The translations under genes and the position numbers were made by a program. This document shows, piece by piece, positions 17,369 to 20,872 of a DNA stretch of 64,000 nt. Source of the stretch: a virus; the IMG/VR virus record IMGVR_UViG_3300042509_002293, positions 32,080 through 96,079 of that record; one strand, 5' to 3'. The notes under the pieces are model-generated. The model searched no databases, was not told the DNA's origin, and saw only the letters and a list, made by a program, of their open reading frames with translations. The stretch's first letter is position 1. Every line of letters begins with the position of its first letter.

Positions 17369-17596
17369 ATGGAAAAGACGTGTGAACGCTGCGTGTTCTG
17401 GACCGCCCCGTCCGGGCCGTCGCCGTGGCATCAGCCCGGCATGCCTCCGGTCGGCGGGGGGCAGTGCCGCCGAAACGCCCCGATTGCCGTTCCGATGCCT
17501 CCGATGGCCGGCATGCCTCCCCCGGGCACGCACTGGCCGCTCACGGCCCCCACGGACTTCTGCGGAGAGTTCTCCCCGCGAGAGGCCTCGTCGTGA
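17369..17596 (+). CDS. Small Cys-rich protein
   Basis: CERCVFW...GQCRRNAP...WP...DFCGEF; strong SD AGGAG. Confidence 0.65.
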   Translation: MEKTCERCVFWTAPSGPSPWHQPGMPPVGGGQCRRNAPIAVPMPPMAGMPPPGTHWPLTAPTDFCGEFSPREASS

Positions 17597-17985
17597 GCGG
17601 AGTCGACCATCCCTCGCACTACAACTCGCACCCCAGCGGCGTCGAGGCGATCGACATCGTCGAGCACCTGCCGTTCAACGTCGGCAACGCTCTGAAGTAC
17701 GTCTTCAGGCGAGAGCACAAGGGCCGGGAACGCGAGGACCTGGAGAAGGCCGTCTGGTACCTGAGGCGGGAACTGGAGCGGATCCGCAAGTCTCGCGATT
17801 TTGATCGATGGACGCCGACGGACGGATACCTGAAGGCGGTCGCGGCCGCGTCGGCCAGGGACCCGTCCCCGGAGATCGGCGAGGTGATCTCGCTGCTCGC
17901 CACGTCCAGGTTCGACGAAAGCCCGGAGGCCGCATCGATCCGAGAGAGCCTCCGCATCCTCTGCCGAATCCTGGAGTCGACATGA
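17593..17985 (+). CDS. DUF3310-family protein
   Basis: VDHPSHY...EAIDIVE...GNALKY..R..HKG..EDLEKAVWYL. Confidence 0.85.
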   Translation: MSGVDHPSHYNSHPSGVEAIDIVEHLPFNVGNALKYVFRREHKGREREDLEKAVWYLRRELERIRKSRDFDRWTPTDGYLKAVAAASARDPSPEIGEVISLLATSRFDESPEAASIRESLRILCRILEST

Positions 17986-18203: not shown

Positions 18204-18501
18204 CGAACTCGTCGACCTCGTGGAGCGGTGGGCGAGCGACCGGAGGATCGTTCCGAACAGCACCCCCCAGGCCCAGCTTCTCAAGACAGTGAGCGAACTC
18301 GGGGAACTCTCCGACGCGACGCTCAAGGGAGACGAGGCCGAGGTCGTCGACGGAGTCGGGGACGTGCTCGTGACTCTGATCATCTACGCGAAGCTCCAGG
18401 GGCTCGACCTCACCCACTGCCTGAACTCCGCCTACCAGACGATCCGCAACCGGCGGGGCACGCTCACGCCCGAGGGCGTGTTCGTGAAGGAGGGGGCGTG
18501 A
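18190..18501 (+). CDS. mazG: MazG-like nucleotide pyrophosphohydrolase
   Basis: QLLKTVSELGEL...DGVGDVLVTL...AYQTIRNRRG. Confidence 0.85.
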   Translation: MITFDELVDLVERWASDRRIVPNSTPQAQLLKTVSELGELSDATLKGDEAEVVDGVGDVLVTLIIYAKLQGLDLTHCLNSAYQTIRNRRGTLTPEGVFVKEGA

Positions 18502-19085
18502 GGAAGATCATCTCGCTCTTCCAGCGAAACTACGGCGGCGACCATCTCGTTCGGGGCGAGGTCGTGCCCGGGGCCGAGTGGGTGATTGCCGGAGAGGGCA
18601 CCCCGACGCGAAAGTACGACGGGACGTGCTGCCTCATCAGGGACGGCAGGCTCTACAGGCGGTTCGACGCCAAGCGGGGGAAGTCGCCTCCCGGTGGGTT
18701 CATTCCGGCCCAGGACCCGGACCCCGTGACCGGGCACTGGCCCGGATGGTTGCTCGTCGACTTCGACAACCCGGCCGACCGCTGGCATGCCGTGGCATCG
18801 ATTGGACGCTCGCTCGTCGGCATGGACGGGACCTGGGAACTGTGCGGACCCAAGATCAACGGCAACCCGGAGGGTCTCCTCGAACACCAACTGCTCCGGC
18901 ACGGATACCCGCTAGACGACTGCGACGCGAGGGACTACCTGTCCATCCGGGACTACCTCTCAGGCAAGGACATCGAGGGCATCGTCTGGCATCACCCGGA
19001 CGGCCGCATGGTGAAGATCAAGAAGCGGGACTTCGGGCTTGACCGTAATACGGATACGAGTACACTCTCGGCCGCTGTCCCGTAG
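18498..19085 (+). CDS. ATP-dependent RNA ligase (DUF5565/RLIG1-like nucleotidyltransferase)
   Basis: Motif I RKYDGT, HWPGW, ELCGPKINGNP, motif IV EGIVW, motif V KIK. Confidence 0.78.
   Translation: MRKIISLFQRNYGGDHLVRGEVVPGAEWVIAGEGTPTRKYDGTCCLIRDGRLYRRFDAKRGKSPPGGFIPAQDPDPVTGHWPGWLLVDFDNPADRWHAVASIGRSLVGMDGTWELCGPKINGNPEGLLEHQLLRHGYPLDDCDARDYLSIRDYLSGKDIEGIVWHHPDGRMVKIKKRDFGLDRNTDTSTLSAAVP
19039..19066 (+). promoter_or_regulatory. Sigma70-like promoter for the ncRNA array/Ro60
   Basis: TTGACC-16-TACACT, ~12 nt before RNA unit 1; spacer contains the ACGGATAC motif. Confidence 0.6.
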
Positions 19086-19145
19086 TGAAGAGCGCGGTTA
19101 CTCCACAATTGCTAGGAAAGAACACCGCACTCGCTTGTTCTCGGG
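19079..19145 (+). ncRNA. Y-RNA-like unit 1 (minimal)
   Basis: CCCG-U-AG/CU-CGGG bulged basal helix, GAGCGCGGT/ACCGCACTC upper stem; shares motifs with units 2-4. Confidence 0.6.
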
Positions 19146-19161
19146 CGATAAATCAATCCAC

Positions 19162-19260
19162 AGGCGTAGTGATATGGGTCGGCTACTTCATGGATGAACG
19201 ATCGGCCTCGTGCTGATTGGCCGGTTCGAGCCCGGCATCCGCCCCAGCCCGTTCTCGCCT
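19162..19260 (+). ncRNA. Y-RNA-like unit 2 (T-arm containing)
   Basis: AGGCG-U-AG/CU-CGCCU basal helix, CGGCTACTTC, T-arm GCCGG-TTCGAGC-CCGGC. Confidence 0.7.
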
Positions 19261-19267
19261 CTCGATA

Positions 19268-19394
19268 CAGGGACGTAGTGTTGTTCGCGGCTACTTCAAG
19301 TGGACGCAAGTTCGAGTCTTGCCGCCTGGGGCTGCGCTGCCTTCGGCGACGCCGGTGCTGGCTCCCGGCACCGCGAGCAGTTGTTCTCGCCCTG
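19268..19394 (+). ncRNA. Y-RNA-like unit 3 (T-arm containing)
   Basis: CAGGG..CG-U-AG/CU-CG-CCCUG, TTGTTCGCGG/CCGCGAGCAG stem, T-arm GCAAG-TTCGAGT-CTTGC. Confidence 0.7.
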
Positions 19395-19403
19395 ACAATC
19401 CTC

Positions 19404-19541
19404 GGCTGTAGTGAAGAGGTCGGCTACTTCTTTTAGGAAGACGAGACGCCGGTTCGACTCCGGCCCCCTCCACTGCAAAGGCCCCGGAGGGGTAGCTCAA
19501 CGGTAGAGCGCGATACGTTCCGTCCTCGCCTGTTCTCGGCC
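19404..19541 (+). ncRNA. YrlA-like Y RNA, unit 4, with circularly permuted tRNA domain
   Basis: T-arm 19448-19464, then acceptor strands CCCCTCC (19465-71)/GGAGGGG (19486-92) closed by a loop, then D-arm TA-GCTC-AACGGTA-GAGC; adjacent to Ro60. Confidence 0.82.
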
Positions 19542-19573: not shown

Positions 19574-20872
19574 ATGAAGCTCAACGTCGCAGACTACTCC
19601 CGCCAGACGACCCACGAGGGCGGGCCAGCCAAGCGGATCTCGCCCGAGCAGGAACTCCGTCGGAGCGTCCTCTCGTGCCTCTTGTGGGAGAAGCAGTTCT
19701 ACGAGGACGGCCAGGACATCGCCGATCGCATCGAGAGTCTCTGCGAGAAGGTCGATCCCAGCGTGATCGCGGCCCTCGCTGTCGAGGCCAGGACGGCATT
19801 CCACCTCCGGCATGTTCCGCTCCTCCTGGCGTCGTGCCTCGCCAAGCGGGGCGGAGGACGTCTCGTGGCCGACACGGTCGAGGCCGTGGTCCAGCGTGCA
19901 GACGAGTTGGCCGAGATCCTCGCCGTCTACTGGCGGAACGGCCGGTGCCCGATCTCGAACGGCCTGAAGAAGGGCCTCGCCCTCGCGTTCACGAAGTTCT
20001 CGCCGTACCAACTGGCAAAGTACAACCGAGACGGAGCGATCAAGCTCCGGGACGTCCTGTTCCTCGTCCACGCCAAGCCCAAGGACGCCGATCAGGCGGA
20101 GACCTGGAAGAAGCTCGTCGACGGCACCCTTGAGTCTCCCGATACCTGGGAGGTCTCGCTCTCCGCCGGTGCCGGCAAGCGTGAGACGTTCGAGAGGCTC
20201 ATCCGAGAGGGGAAGCTCGGCTATCTCGCCCTCCTGCGGAACCTCCGCAATATGGCCGAGGCCGGGGTCGACTCCTCGGCGGTCAAGAATGCGATCCTCT
20301 GCCGTGCCGGCGCCGGCCGGGTGCTGCCGTTCCGCTACGTTGCGGCGGCGAGGGCCTGCCCGCAGTACGAGACGACGCTCGACATCGCCCTGCTTGCGGC
20401 CATCTCGGAACTGCCGGCCCTGCCGGGCAAGACGCTCGTGCTCGTCGACATCTCCGGGAGCATGGACTCCGCATTGTCTGGAAAGAGTGACCTGAGGCGG
20501 ATCGACGCGGCGGCCGCCCTGGCGAGCATCATTCCCGGGGACGTGCGGGTCTTCTCGTTCACCGACGCAGTCAAGGAGGTCCCGCCCAGGCGGGGCATGG
20601 CGGGGGTCGACGCGATCCTCTCGTCTCAGCCCCACGGCGGGACGTACCTTGGCCATGCCGTGAAGGCGATGAATGCGATCGAGCACGACCGGCTCGTGGT
20701 CATCACCGACGAGCAGTCGGCGGACTCCGTCCCGGACCCGCTCGCGAAGCATGCCTACATGATCAACGTGGCCTCGCACCGCAACGGTGTCGGCTACGGA
20801 CGCTGGACCCACCTCGACGGATTCTCCGAGAACGTCATCCGCTTCATCGCAGAGAGCGAGGCGGGCCGATGA
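19574..20872 (+). CDS. rsr: Ro60/TROVE-domain RNA-binding protein
   Basis: TROVE motifs (FYE, RADEL, YQLAKY, LRDVLFLVHAKP, TWEV.LS, ALLRNLRN, RVLPFRY) and vWA motifs (VDISGSM, GGT, ITDEQ). Confidence 0.93.
   Translation: MKLNVADYSRQTTHEGGPAKRISPEQELRRSVLSCLLWEKQFYEDGQDIADRIESLCEKVDPSVIAALAVEARTAFHLRHVPLLLASCLAKRGGGRLVADTVEAVVQRADELAEILAVYWRNGRCPISNGLKKGLALAFTKFSPYQLAKYNRDGAIKLRDVLFLVHAKPKDADQAETWKKLVDGTLESPDTWEVSLSAGAGKRETFERLIREGKLGYLALLRNLRNMAEAGVDSSAVKNAILCRAGAGRVLPFRYVAAARACPQYETTLDIALLAAISELPALPGKTLVLVDISGSMDSALSGKSDLRRIDAAAALASIIPGDVRVFSFTDAVKEVPPRRGMAGVDAILSSQPHGGTYLGHAVKAMNAIEHDRLVVITDEQSADSVPDPLAKHAYMINVASHRNGVGYGRWTHLDGFSENVIRFIAESEAGR

What the first reader, a model, noticed from the sequence alone, without database searches (positions are those of the whole stretch)
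19079..19541. Conserved non-canonical Ro-binding scaffold with compensatory base changes across four units
Each unit reads 5' [stem]G-U-AG-UG..[stem ending CGG]-(C/U)UACU(U/C)C-[variable]-[stem]..(U/C)GUU-CUC-[stem] 3'. Basal stems differ in sequence but keep pairing: CCCG/CGGG, AGGCG/CGCCU, CAGGG/CCCUG, GGCUG/CGGCC. Upper stems also covary: GAGCGCGGU/ACCGCACUC, UGGGUCGG/CCGCCCCA, UUGUUCGCGG/CCGCGAGCAG, GAGGUCGG/CCGUCCUC. The bulged base is U, not the bulged C of metazoan Y RNAs. Short, comparatively A/T-rich linkers suggest processing from one precursor. This may define a new Y RNA class.
Basis: seen in the sequence. Interest (0 to 1): 0.85.

Follow-up and report, generated by a model that had tools for sequence, protein, structure and literature searches.

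The report
Four phage Y RNAs beside Ro60
Four small structured RNAs encoded in a row just upstream of a lake-water phage's Ro60 (Rsr) gene are real, conserved Y RNAs, but they are divergent members of the already described bacterial/phage YrlA/YrlB-type family, not a new RNA class.

Summary
Window 19079-19541 contains four tandem units (67, 99, 127 and 138 nt). Each has a basal stem, a U bulge, 2 bp (AG/CU), a second U bulge, G(A/U)A, an 8-10 bp upper stem and YUACUYC, closed on the 3' side by YGUUCU. The 5' composite motif occurs 4 times against 0.02 expected. The array lies between an RNA ligase gene and a TROVE+vWA Rsr gene in a 96-kb phage. The same module sits beside rsr in 12 related phage loci and in at least 23 of 26 bacterial loci searched. 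In a 68-unit alignment, 92% of cells are paired (38-55% when slid) and 16 of 16 pairs show double changes. Unit 4 carries a full permuted tRNA-like core (T arm, 7-bp acceptor-like stem, D arm). Units 2 and 3 keep only a T arm. Unit 1 is minimal.

This is the published YrlA/YrlB architecture (GNCGAAN0-1G plus YUAY). A U at the bulge is common in this clade (37 of 68). Only the A-U pair below the bulge is particular to this phage. Rfam does not capture the units: YrlA scores 32 bits against a threshold of 69, on unit 4 only. Expression and Rsr binding are inferred, not shown.

The parts
18228..19085 (+). RNA ligase gene directly upstream of the array. The start codon is uncertain. The 3' end overlaps the promoter-like site and the first 7 nt of unit 1.
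   Evidence: Pfam RLIG1 PF17720, E 3.4e-10. PHROG 14301 'RNA ligase', E 1.5e-70. PDB 9c6l 'RNA ligase1', E 1.5e-15. Not adjacent to rsr in the 12 related phage loci.
19039..19066 (+). Sigma-70-like promoter, TTGACC-16-TACACT, ending 13 nt before unit 1.
   Evidence: 1 site found against 0.2 expected. A TTGAC(A/G/C) -35 hexamer lies 34-40 nt upstream of the first unit in 8 of the 13 phage loci scanned (window plus L003, L004, L005, L007, L008, L011, L014; the 13th locus, L013, lies on a short contig).
19079..19145 (+). Unit 1: minimal Y RNA of 67 nt. It has the Ro-binding stem and a 25-nt loop, with no tRNA-like element.
   Evidence: MFE fold. CM R1 scores 59.9 bits; note that u1 was one of the model's seed sequences.
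19162..19260 (+). Unit 2: 99 nt. Same stem module, plus a hairpin and a T-arm-like hairpin (GCCGG-UUCGAGC-CCGGC, 19220-19236). No D arm.
   Evidence: MFE fold. CM R1 scores 19.2 bits, E 5.6e-4, correctly aligned. T-arm scan.
19268..19394 (+). Unit 3: 127 nt. Same stem module, a T-arm-like hairpin (GCAAG-UUCGAGU-CUUGC, 19306-19322) and two further hairpins. No D arm.
   Evidence: MFE fold. CM R1 scores 39.7 bits, E 1e-7, full length. T-arm scan.
19404..19541 (+). Unit 4: 138 nt, YrlA-like. It has the stem module, a V-like hairpin (19427-19440), a T arm (19448-19464), a 7-bp acceptor-like stem (19465-19471 with 19486-19492) closed by a 14-nt loop, and a D arm (19495-19509).
   Evidence: Rfam YrlA RF02553 scores 32 bits, E 6.3e-5, model positions 28-81. 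MFE fold. RNAalifold consensus of 14 full units has 26 of 33 pairs with compensatory changes.
19574..20872 (+). rsr (Ro60 orthologue, 432 aa, TROVE + vWA), 32 nt downstream of unit 4. No terminator is predicted between them.
   Evidence: Pfam TROVE, E 5.4e-14, plus VWA_2. PHROG 850. Closest solved structure is Thermus phage phiLo Ro60, 9KOP/9L5Y, E 2.5e-30. No terminator-like site.

Best explanation
The 463-nt stretch encodes four Y RNAs that partner the phage's own Ro60 orthologue (Rsr).

Proposed mechanism:
- A promoter at 19039-19066 starts transcription a few nucleotides before unit 1. With no terminator before rsr, the four units and rsr are probably made as one precursor.
- The units would be released by cuts in the short A/U-rich linkers.
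- Each RNA docks on the outer face of the Rsr ring through the helix formed by its 5' and 3' ends: basal stem, bulged U, two base pairs, bulged pyrimidine, then G.U and A-U. This is the bacterial equivalent of the metazoan GGUC[C]GA/UUGACC site.
- The distal modules differ. Unit 4 has a permuted tRNA-like domain. Units 2 and 3 have a T arm only. Unit 1 has nothing.
- One Rsr could therefore be gated by the minimal RNA, or tethered through the tRNA-like elbow to host factors such as PNPase or tRNA-processing enzymes.
- Together with the adjacent RNA ligase, this would give the phage an RNA quality-control and repair module.

Shown here: the anatomy, the linkage to rsr, the conservation and the covariation.

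Inferred: transcription, processing, Rsr binding and the identity of the effector.
For: - Same-strand position 32 nt upstream of a TROVE+vWA gene.
- The 5' composite motif occurs 4 times against 0.02 expected, and nowhere else in the 96-kb genome.
- MFE folds of all four units give the same stem architecture.
- CM R1 gives 33 hits in 13 phage sources and 48 hits in at least 23 of 26 bacterial loci. All are on the rsr strand and near rsr; none is on the opposite strand.
- Covariation in 24 phage units: 90.3% of cells paired against 40-55% when slid, and 15 of 16 pairs with double changes.
- Covariation in 68 units: 92.0% paired against 38-55% when slid, 16 of 16 pairs with double changes, and score 0.599 against 0.05-0.15.
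- The 2-bp step covaries: GG/CC, AG/CU, GC/GC and GA/UC.
- Unit 4 matches the YrlA T/AS/D core. It aligns with 13 full units whose T, 7-bp AS and D stems covary.
- The conserved UA of YUACUUC is the conserved kink/V-loop dinucleotide of YrlA (PMC4201824; bioRxiv 10.1101/312249).
- The nearest solved Rsr is phiLo Ro60, which binds phage-encoded Y-like RNAs encoded beside its gene in EMSA and cryo-EM (PMC12135203).
- Promoter-like sites lie just upstream of the first unit in 8 of the 13 phage loci scanned, including the window.
Against: - There is no expression or end-mapping data. No RNA run holds the sequence.
- MFE stabilities are not better than shuffles (z -0.3 to -1.35).
- No unit reaches an Rfam gathering score.
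- The literal published motif GNCGAAN0-1G is not matched. The units read AGUGAAG, AGUGAUAUG and AGUGUUG.
- The ligase neighbour is not conserved in related loci, so the 'repair module' link rests on this genome alone.
- The A3 and A4 alignments were fitted to the model, which inflates pairing somewhat. The slid controls and the independent RNAalifold run offset this.
Confidence: 0.85

Rival explanations
1. One reading: the units define a new Y RNA class with a non-canonical, U-bulged Ro-binding site distinct from YrlA, YrlB and metazoan Y RNAs.
For: - No Rfam family reaches threshold. Three of the four units get no Rfam hit at all.
- The literal GNCGAA motif is absent.
- The Rfam YrlA model does not include the basal Ro-binding helix (alignments).
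- The 3' strand GCUUGUUCY is conserved here, whereas Chen 2014 saw only the 5' strand in the Salmonella and M. smegmatis RNAs.
Against: - In the 68-unit alignment the motif grades continuously into exact GNCGAAG (GGCGAAG in L006, L009 and L044).
- U (37) and C (31) alternate at the bulge within single arrays.
- YUAY and the tRNA-like core are the published YrlA hallmarks.
- CcrColossus, whose array has the same module, was already listed as carrying Y RNA-like RNAs (PMC12135203, citing Chen 2014).
Confidence: 0.1
2. The units act mainly in cis, as Rsr-binding sites in the rsr mRNA leader that autoregulate rsr translation or stability, rather than as processed trans-acting RNAs.
For: - No terminator lies between unit 4 and rsr.
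- The promoter lies upstream of unit 1 and the RBS is only 32 nt after unit 4.
- Arrays are nearly always 5' of rsr on the same strand.
Against: - Characterised relatives, including M. smegmatis YrlA encoded 5' of rsr, accumulate as discrete Rsr-bound RNAs (PMC4201824).
- In Microcystis phage Mvi-JY20 and Thermus phage phiLo the model hits lie 3' of rsr.
- Up to eight units with elaborate tRNA-like domains are more than an operator needs.
Confidence: 0.08
3. The stretch is a decayed or unusual tRNA/tmRNA gene cluster with no relation to Ro60.
For: - T-arm-like hairpins in units 2-4 and a D arm in unit 4.
- Weak tmRNA hits in Rfam (18-21 bits).
- Equivalent cores are annotated as tRNA-Thr, tRNA-Ser and tRNA-Gln in related phages.
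Against: - ARAGORN finds no tRNA or tmRNA in the window.
- The arm order is permuted (T, then acceptor, then D), with a closed acceptor loop and no anticodon arm.
- Unit 1 has no tRNA element, yet shares the covarying stem module.
- Linkage to rsr is strict across phyla.
Confidence: 0.02

Closest known systems
YrlA (S. Typhimurium, M. smegmatis and others; Chen et al. 2014, PMC4201824; Rfam RF02553)
   Same: - Encoded next to rsr on the same strand.
- The long stem formed by the 5' and 3' ends carries the Rsr site.
- YUAY follows the upper stem.
- Unit 4 has a permuted tRNA-like core: T arm, acceptor-like stem-loop and D arm.
- The acceptor-like stem is 7 bp, as in M. smegmatis YrlA.
   Different: - The 5' motif reads AGUGAAG instead of GNCGAAG.
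- The 3' strand (YGUUCU) is also conserved.
- The Rfam score is 32 bits against a gathering score of 69, and only for unit 4.
- Units 1-3 lack the D arm and/or the whole tRNA-like domain.
YrlB (second, shorter Rsr-bound RNA of S. Typhimurium and M. smegmatis; PMC4201824)
   Same: - A shorter Y RNA co-encoded with YrlA that shares the Rsr-binding motif.
- M. smegmatis YrlB keeps a T arm, like units 2 and 3.
   Different: - No curated model exists to test against.
- This locus has three such RNAs, one of them (unit 1) with no tRNA element at all.
Yrl1/Yrl2 of Thermus phage phiLo with phiRo60 (PMC12135203; PDB 9L5Y)
   Same: - Phage-encoded Y-like RNAs beside a phage Ro60.
- That Ro60 is the closest solved relative of this Rsr.
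- Stem-bulge-stem architecture with the (C)GAA motif.
- A C-to-U change in the motif is tolerated (KD 49 nM against 17 nM).
   Different: - phiLo has two RNAs, described without a tRNA-like domain.
- Protein identity is only about 28%.
- The model R1 hits in phiLo are weak (26 bits) and lie 3' of the gene.
Metazoan Y RNAs and D. radiodurans Yrn1
   Same: - Terminal helix with a single bulged pyrimidine, followed by G.U and A-U.
- Both strands are conserved.
- Two to four Y RNAs per genome.
   Different: - Metazoan RNAs have a bulged C within GGUCCGA/UUGACC and no tRNA-like domain.
- No Rfam Y_RNA hit appears even at E<=10.
- An extra conserved U bulge lies two pairs below (U in 66 of 68 units).

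Membership tests
YrlA-type bacterial/phage Y RNA (Chen et al. 2014) | Encoded within about 4 kb of an rsr/TROVE gene, on the same strand | tested here: met
   Units end 32 nt upstream of the TROVE+vWA ORF 19574-20872, same strand.
YrlA-type bacterial/phage Y RNA (Chen et al. 2014) | 5' motif GNCGAAN0-1G in the terminal stem | tested here: not met
   The literal motif is absent. The units read AGUGAAG (u1, u4), AGUGAUAUG (u2) and AGUGUUG (u3). The position is homologous: the aligned column block reads GG[C/U]G[A/U/C]AG across 68 units and includes exact GGCGAAG members.
YrlA-type bacterial/phage Y RNA (Chen et al. 2014) | Conserved YUAY after the upper (anticodon-stem-like) helix | tested here: met
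   UUAC in u1 and CUAC in u2-u4. In A4 the UACUUC block is nearly invariant: U 68, A 50/C 15, C 67, U 67, U 66, C 67.
YrlA-type bacterial/phage Y RNA (Chen et al. 2014) | tRNA-like core: T arm, acceptor-like stem-loop, then D arm, in that permuted order | tested here: met
   Met for unit 4 only. Units 2 and 3 have the T arm alone and unit 1 has none.
Rfam RF02553 (YrlA) as curated | Covariance-model score at or above the gathering threshold (69 bits) | tested here: not met
   There are no gathering-level hits in the window. The best is unit 4 at 32 bits, local to model positions 28-81. Relatives in Xanthomonas, Brevundimonas and Caulobacter phages also score only 30-56 bits.
Y RNA in the functional sense (Ro60-bound ncRNA) | Physical association with Ro60/Rsr, and existence as a discrete stable RNA | not testable with these tools
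   No RNA run holds the sequence. Binding has been shown only for distant relatives (PMC4201824, PMC12135203).
Y RNA in the functional sense (Ro60-bound ncRNA) | Terminal helix with a bulged nucleotide, supported by covariation | tested here: met
   16 of 16 modelled pairs show double changes, and 92% of cells are paired against 38-55% when slid. The independent RNAalifold consensus agrees.
tRNA / tmRNA | Canonical cloverleaf with an anticodon arm, or a tmRNA with a tag reading frame | tested here: not met
   ARAGORN finds none. Rfam tmRNA hits score 18-21 bits against a threshold of 47.

The most novel reading that the evidence does not exclude
The rsr-linked arrays, with 2-8 units per phage locus, may form a coherent Y RNA superfamily that no curated resource covers. 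They occur in phages of Xanthomonas, Caulobacter, Brevundimonas and Microcystis, and in Acidobacteriota, Alphaproteobacteria and Desulfobacterota.

All units share one docking module conserved on both strands: basal stem, U, 2 bp, Y, G-W-A-G, then GCUUGUUCC on the 3' side. The effector ends are deliberately graded: none, T arm only, or a full tRNA mimic with a 7-bp acceptor stem that RNase P could cleave.

This would let a single Ro60 ring be gated, or tethered to different host partners, during infection. In this phage it would be coupled to an RNA ligase to counter RNA-cleaving host defences.
Probability: 0.3. Interest if true: 0.55.

Novelty: new member of a known kind. Interest (0 to 1): 0.36.

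Why it matters
Ro60 and its Y RNAs are conserved from bacteria to humans, yet how Y RNA modules direct Ro60 is understood in only a few species.

This locus and its relatives show that one phage can carry a graded set of Y RNAs on a single docking scaffold. The relatives comprise about 50 units in 12 phage loci and 48 model hits in bacterial loci.

They also show that the docking helix tolerates U or C at the bulge, and G-C, A-U or C-G at the pairs beneath it. That is a ready-made natural mutagenesis series for Ro60 recognition.

Practically, current Rfam models miss these RNAs, and phage annotations mislabel their cores as tRNA genes.

For the window itself the result is mostly confirmatory. 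It is a phage Rsr/Y-RNA module of a known type, here next to an RNA ligase.

Tried and rejected
- **blastn against phage records:** a 'distant' search with the region found no match. Nucleotide similarity is too low, so relatives were found through the Rsr protein instead.
- **Rfam:** the gathering-threshold search gave nothing. At E<=10 only YrlA appeared as a relevant hit (local, unit 4); the tmRNA, tmRNA_permuted, mir-1306 and sR10 hits were weak or spurious.
- **ARAGORN:** no tRNA or tmRNA.
- **First cofold-based unit finder:** too noisy because of intramolecular artefacts. It was replaced by a rule-based finder and the covariance model.
- **CM R1 on long units:** it mis-aligns the 3' half of unit 4 and, without filters, of unit 3. 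Long units were therefore analysed with MFE folds and a separate MAFFT/RNAalifold alignment.
- **Sequencing runs:** no RNA holder is listed. The DNA holders are lake-water metagenomes.
- **Laying four runs:** the contigs are identical over the array, so no population-level compensatory variants could be scored.
- **Literature not held:** the supplement of Chen 2014, the Sim/Wolin reviews and Green 1998. I could not check whether multi-unit arrays in CcrColossus-like phages were tabulated before.
- **Ligase adjacency as a conserved feature:** rejected. The ligase is absent within 2.5 kb of rsr in all 12 related phage loci.
- **GUAG/CUAC pairing:** I considered alternative pairing of GUAG (5' motif) with CUAC (after the upper stem) and dropped it. 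It is not maintained in relatives that read GUGAAG...UUAC.

Full report
**Context.** The window is bases 32080-96079 of a 96-kb, about 98% complete IMG/VR virus record. The same sequence occurs in many lake-water metagenomes. The finding lies between two genes on the + strand. The first is ORF 18228-19085, an RNA ligase (Pfam RLIG1; PHROG 14301, E 1.5e-70; PDB 9c6l). The second is ORF 19574-20872, a 432-aa TROVE+vWA protein, that is, a Ro60 orthologue or Rsr. Its closest solved relative is the Ro60 of Thermus phage phiLo (9KOP/9L5Y, E 2.5e-30).

**The observation.** Reading the sequence gives four units: u1 19079-19145 (67 nt), u2 19162-19260 (99 nt), u3 19268-19394 (127 nt) and u4 19404-19541 (138 nt).
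- Each begins with a 4-7 bp basal stem, a bulged U, the pairs A-U and G-C (AG with CU), a second bulged U, then G(A/U)A.
- An 8-10 bp upper stem and YUACUYC follow.
- On the 3' side each closes with the upper-stem complement, (G)CYUGUU or CCCGUU, CU, and the basal complement.
Three upper stems carry one internal mismatch.
- Unconstrained MFE folding recovers basal stem, 2-bp step and upper stem in all four units. The energies are not better than shuffles (z -0.3 to -1.35).
- GTAGTG-N9-13-TACTYC occurs four times in 64 kb, all here, against 0.02 expected.
- The linkers are 16, 7 and 9 nt and relatively A/U-rich.

**What the distal parts are.**
- u4 contains a T arm (GCCGG-UUCGACU-CCGGC), a 7-bp stem closed by a 14-nt loop, then UA and a D arm (GCUC-AACGGUA-GAGC). 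This is the permuted T, acceptor, D order of YrlA.
- Rfam's YrlA model aligns to exactly this core (model positions 28-81) at 32 bits, E 6.3e-5. That is well below the gathering score of 69.
- u2 and u3 keep only a T-arm-like hairpin with a UUCGA loop. u1 has no tRNA-like element.
- ARAGORN finds no tRNA or tmRNA.

**Relatives.** Nucleotide search found nothing, so I used the Rsr protein.
- Its closest phage relatives (57-65% identity) are in Xanthomonas, Brevundimonas and Caulobacter phages and nine IMG/VR contigs.
- All carry arrays of the same kind upstream of rsr. I counted about 50 units in 12 loci, with 2-8 per locus.
- By a conservative scan, 18 are minimal, 16 have a full T+D core, 10 have a T arm only and 6 are other. 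Nearly every locus mixes minimal and full units.
- Several cores are annotated there as tRNA-Thr, tRNA-Ser or tRNA-Gln.
- Rfam YrlA scores these relatives at only 30-56 bits. Its model starts at the upper stem, so it does not cover the basal Ro-binding helix at all.

**Covariation.** I built a covariance model (R1) from ten minimal units.
- It gives 33 hits in the 13 phage sources, all on the rsr strand and upstream of rsr. In the window, and in the whole 96-kb genome, it hits only this locus.
- In 26 bacterial loci found through Rsr it gives 48 more hits in at least 23 loci, again all on the rsr strand. These loci come from Acidobacteriota, Hyphomicrobiaceae, Bradyrhizobium, Geminicoccaceae, Amaricoccus, Desulfovibrionaceae and others.
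- In the 24-unit phage alignment, 90.3% of cells are paired against 40-55% when the 3' partner is slid. Fifteen of 16 pairs show double changes.
- In the 68-unit alignment, 92.0% are paired against 38-55% when slid. All 16 pairs show double changes, and the covariation score is 0.599 against 0.05-0.15.
- These alignments are fitted to the model. However, an independent MAFFT/RNAalifold run on 14 full-length units gives the same basal, 2-bp and upper stems plus covarying T, 7-bp acceptor-like and D stems, with 26 of 33 pairs compensated.

**Why it is not a new class.** Chen et al. 2014 (PMC4201824) defined YrlA-type Y RNAs by proximity to rsr, a 5' GNCGAAN0-1G motif, a conserved YUAY and the T/AS/D tRNA-like core. 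They also described shorter companion RNAs (YrlB; the M. smegmatis one has a T arm) and found such RNAs in 22 phages. According to PMC12135203, these include CcrColossus, whose locus here (L005) carries eight units of this very module. The conserved UA of YUAY is the kink dinucleotide in the YrlA crystal structure (bioRxiv 10.1101/312249). Column counts in the 68-unit alignment show the following:
- The motif block reads G-G-[U 37 / C 31]-G-[A/U/C]-A-G. Exact GGCGAAG members occur in L006, L009 and Microcystis phage Mvi-JY20.
- The bulged U is therefore the commoner state in this clade, not an oddity.
- In phiLo a C-to-U change in the CGAA motif raises KD only from 17 to 49 nM (PMC12135203).
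- What is nearly private to this phage is A instead of G at the pair two positions 5' of the bulge, compensated by U instead of C on the 3' strand. All four window units have it, as does one unit in an Asticcacaulis prophage (L008 2176-2299).
- Modest additions to the literature picture: the 3' strand (G-C-U-U-G-UU-CC) and a further bulged U (66 of 68) are also strongly conserved, and G11 is invariant opposite U. This mirrors the metazoan sequence of bulged C, G.U, A-U.

**Likely mechanism.**
- A TTGACC-16-TACACT promoter-like site ends 13 nt before u1. A comparable TTGAC(A/G/C) -35 hexamer sits 34-40 nt upstream of the first unit in 8 of the 13 phage loci scanned, including the window. No terminator-like site separates u4 from rsr.
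- I infer a single precursor covering the four units and rsr, with the units released at the A/U-rich linkers.
- Each RNA would dock on Rsr through the bulged terminal helix.
- The tRNA-like end of u4 has a 7-bp acceptor-like stem, the feature that makes M. smegmatis YrlA an RNase P substrate (PMC4201824). It would engage tRNA enzymes or an effector such as PNPase. The minimal u1 could only gate the ring.
- phiLo Ro60 with its Y-like RNAs forms complexes with host PNPase and attenuates its activity (PMC12135203). That is the best experimental analogy.
- The adjacent RNA ligase recalls the bacterial rsr-yrlBA-rtcBA repair operon. However, the ligase is not adjacent in any of the 12 related phage loci, so the functional coupling is speculative.
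- Transcription, processing and binding are all inferred. No RNA data exist for this phage.

**Verdict.** The structure is real and under strong selection. It is a phage Rsr/Y-RNA module of the known YrlA/YrlB type, with a locally distinctive but compensated base pair. Existing Rfam models and phage annotations miss it. It is a new member of a known kind, and interest is moderate to low for the window itself. The family-wide picture adds some interest: arrays of graded Y RNAs on one docking module, conserved on both strands, across phages and several bacterial phyla. I could not find that picture described in the literature available to me.

Noticed in passing
L003:2298-2365; L004:2272-2346; L005:1634-1701: GenBank records of Xanthomonas phage 10KY502B, Brevundimonas phage Kikimora and Caulobacter phage CcrColossus annotate tRNA-Thr, tRNA-Ser and tRNA-Gln inside the Y RNA arrays upstream of rsr. 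These fall on the tRNA-like cores of YrlA-type units and are probably misannotations.
   Followed up: partly
L004:5847-6192: Brevundimonas phage Kikimora has a permuted tmRNA about 2 kb downstream of rsr. It scores above threshold (Rfam tmRNA_permuted, 57.7 bits against 47) and lies next to a tRNA.
   Followed up: no
L042:2982-3043 and L042:3172-3249: In Thermus phage phiLo the stem-module model hits lie 3' of the Ro60 gene on its strand (26.2 bits, E 4e-5; and 9.9 bits). They overlap the annotated hypothetical CDS phiLo_25. I did not resolve whether they correspond to the published Yrl1/Yrl2.
   Followed up: no
L044:3351-3416: Microcystis phage Mvi-JY20 has a minimal unit with an exact GGCGAAG motif (57 bits). 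It lies just downstream of its rsr-like gene and upstream of a cluster of three tRNA genes. The module therefore extends to cyanophages and is not always 5' of rsr.
   Followed up: partly
alignment A4, columns 17-18 with 133-135; window units u1, u2, u4: The middle of the upper stem is unpaired unusually often: 16 and 24 of 67 sequences at two adjacent pairs. u1, u2 and u4 each carry a single mismatch there (C.A, U.C, U.U). This may be a conserved helix irregularity rather than noise.
   Followed up: no
L008 = L016 (NZ_AWGE01000003.1); L011 / L019 (Bradyrhizobium elkanii WSM2783): At least one of the 'viral contigs' with arrays is the same DNA as a bacterial genome contig: L008 and L016 (Asticcacaulis sp. 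AC466) share contig length and range. Another (L011) appears to match a Bradyrhizobium contig (L019), judged only from a matching model hit and match coordinates. Some arrays may therefore sit in prophages or prophage-like regions.
   Followed up: no
window 17425-17985: An ORF two genes upstream has a DUF3310 domain and matches PHROG 'nucleotide kinase' families. If it is a polynucleotide kinase-like enzyme it would fit an RNA-repair neighbourhood with the ligase. Not examined further.
   Followed up: no
L025, L027, L037, L038 (Acidobacteriota loci), hits at about 80-1140: In several Acidobacteriota loci the Y RNA units lie 1.4-2.4 kb upstream of rsr rather than adjacent to it. One or more genes may be inserted between the array and rsr.
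   Followed up: no
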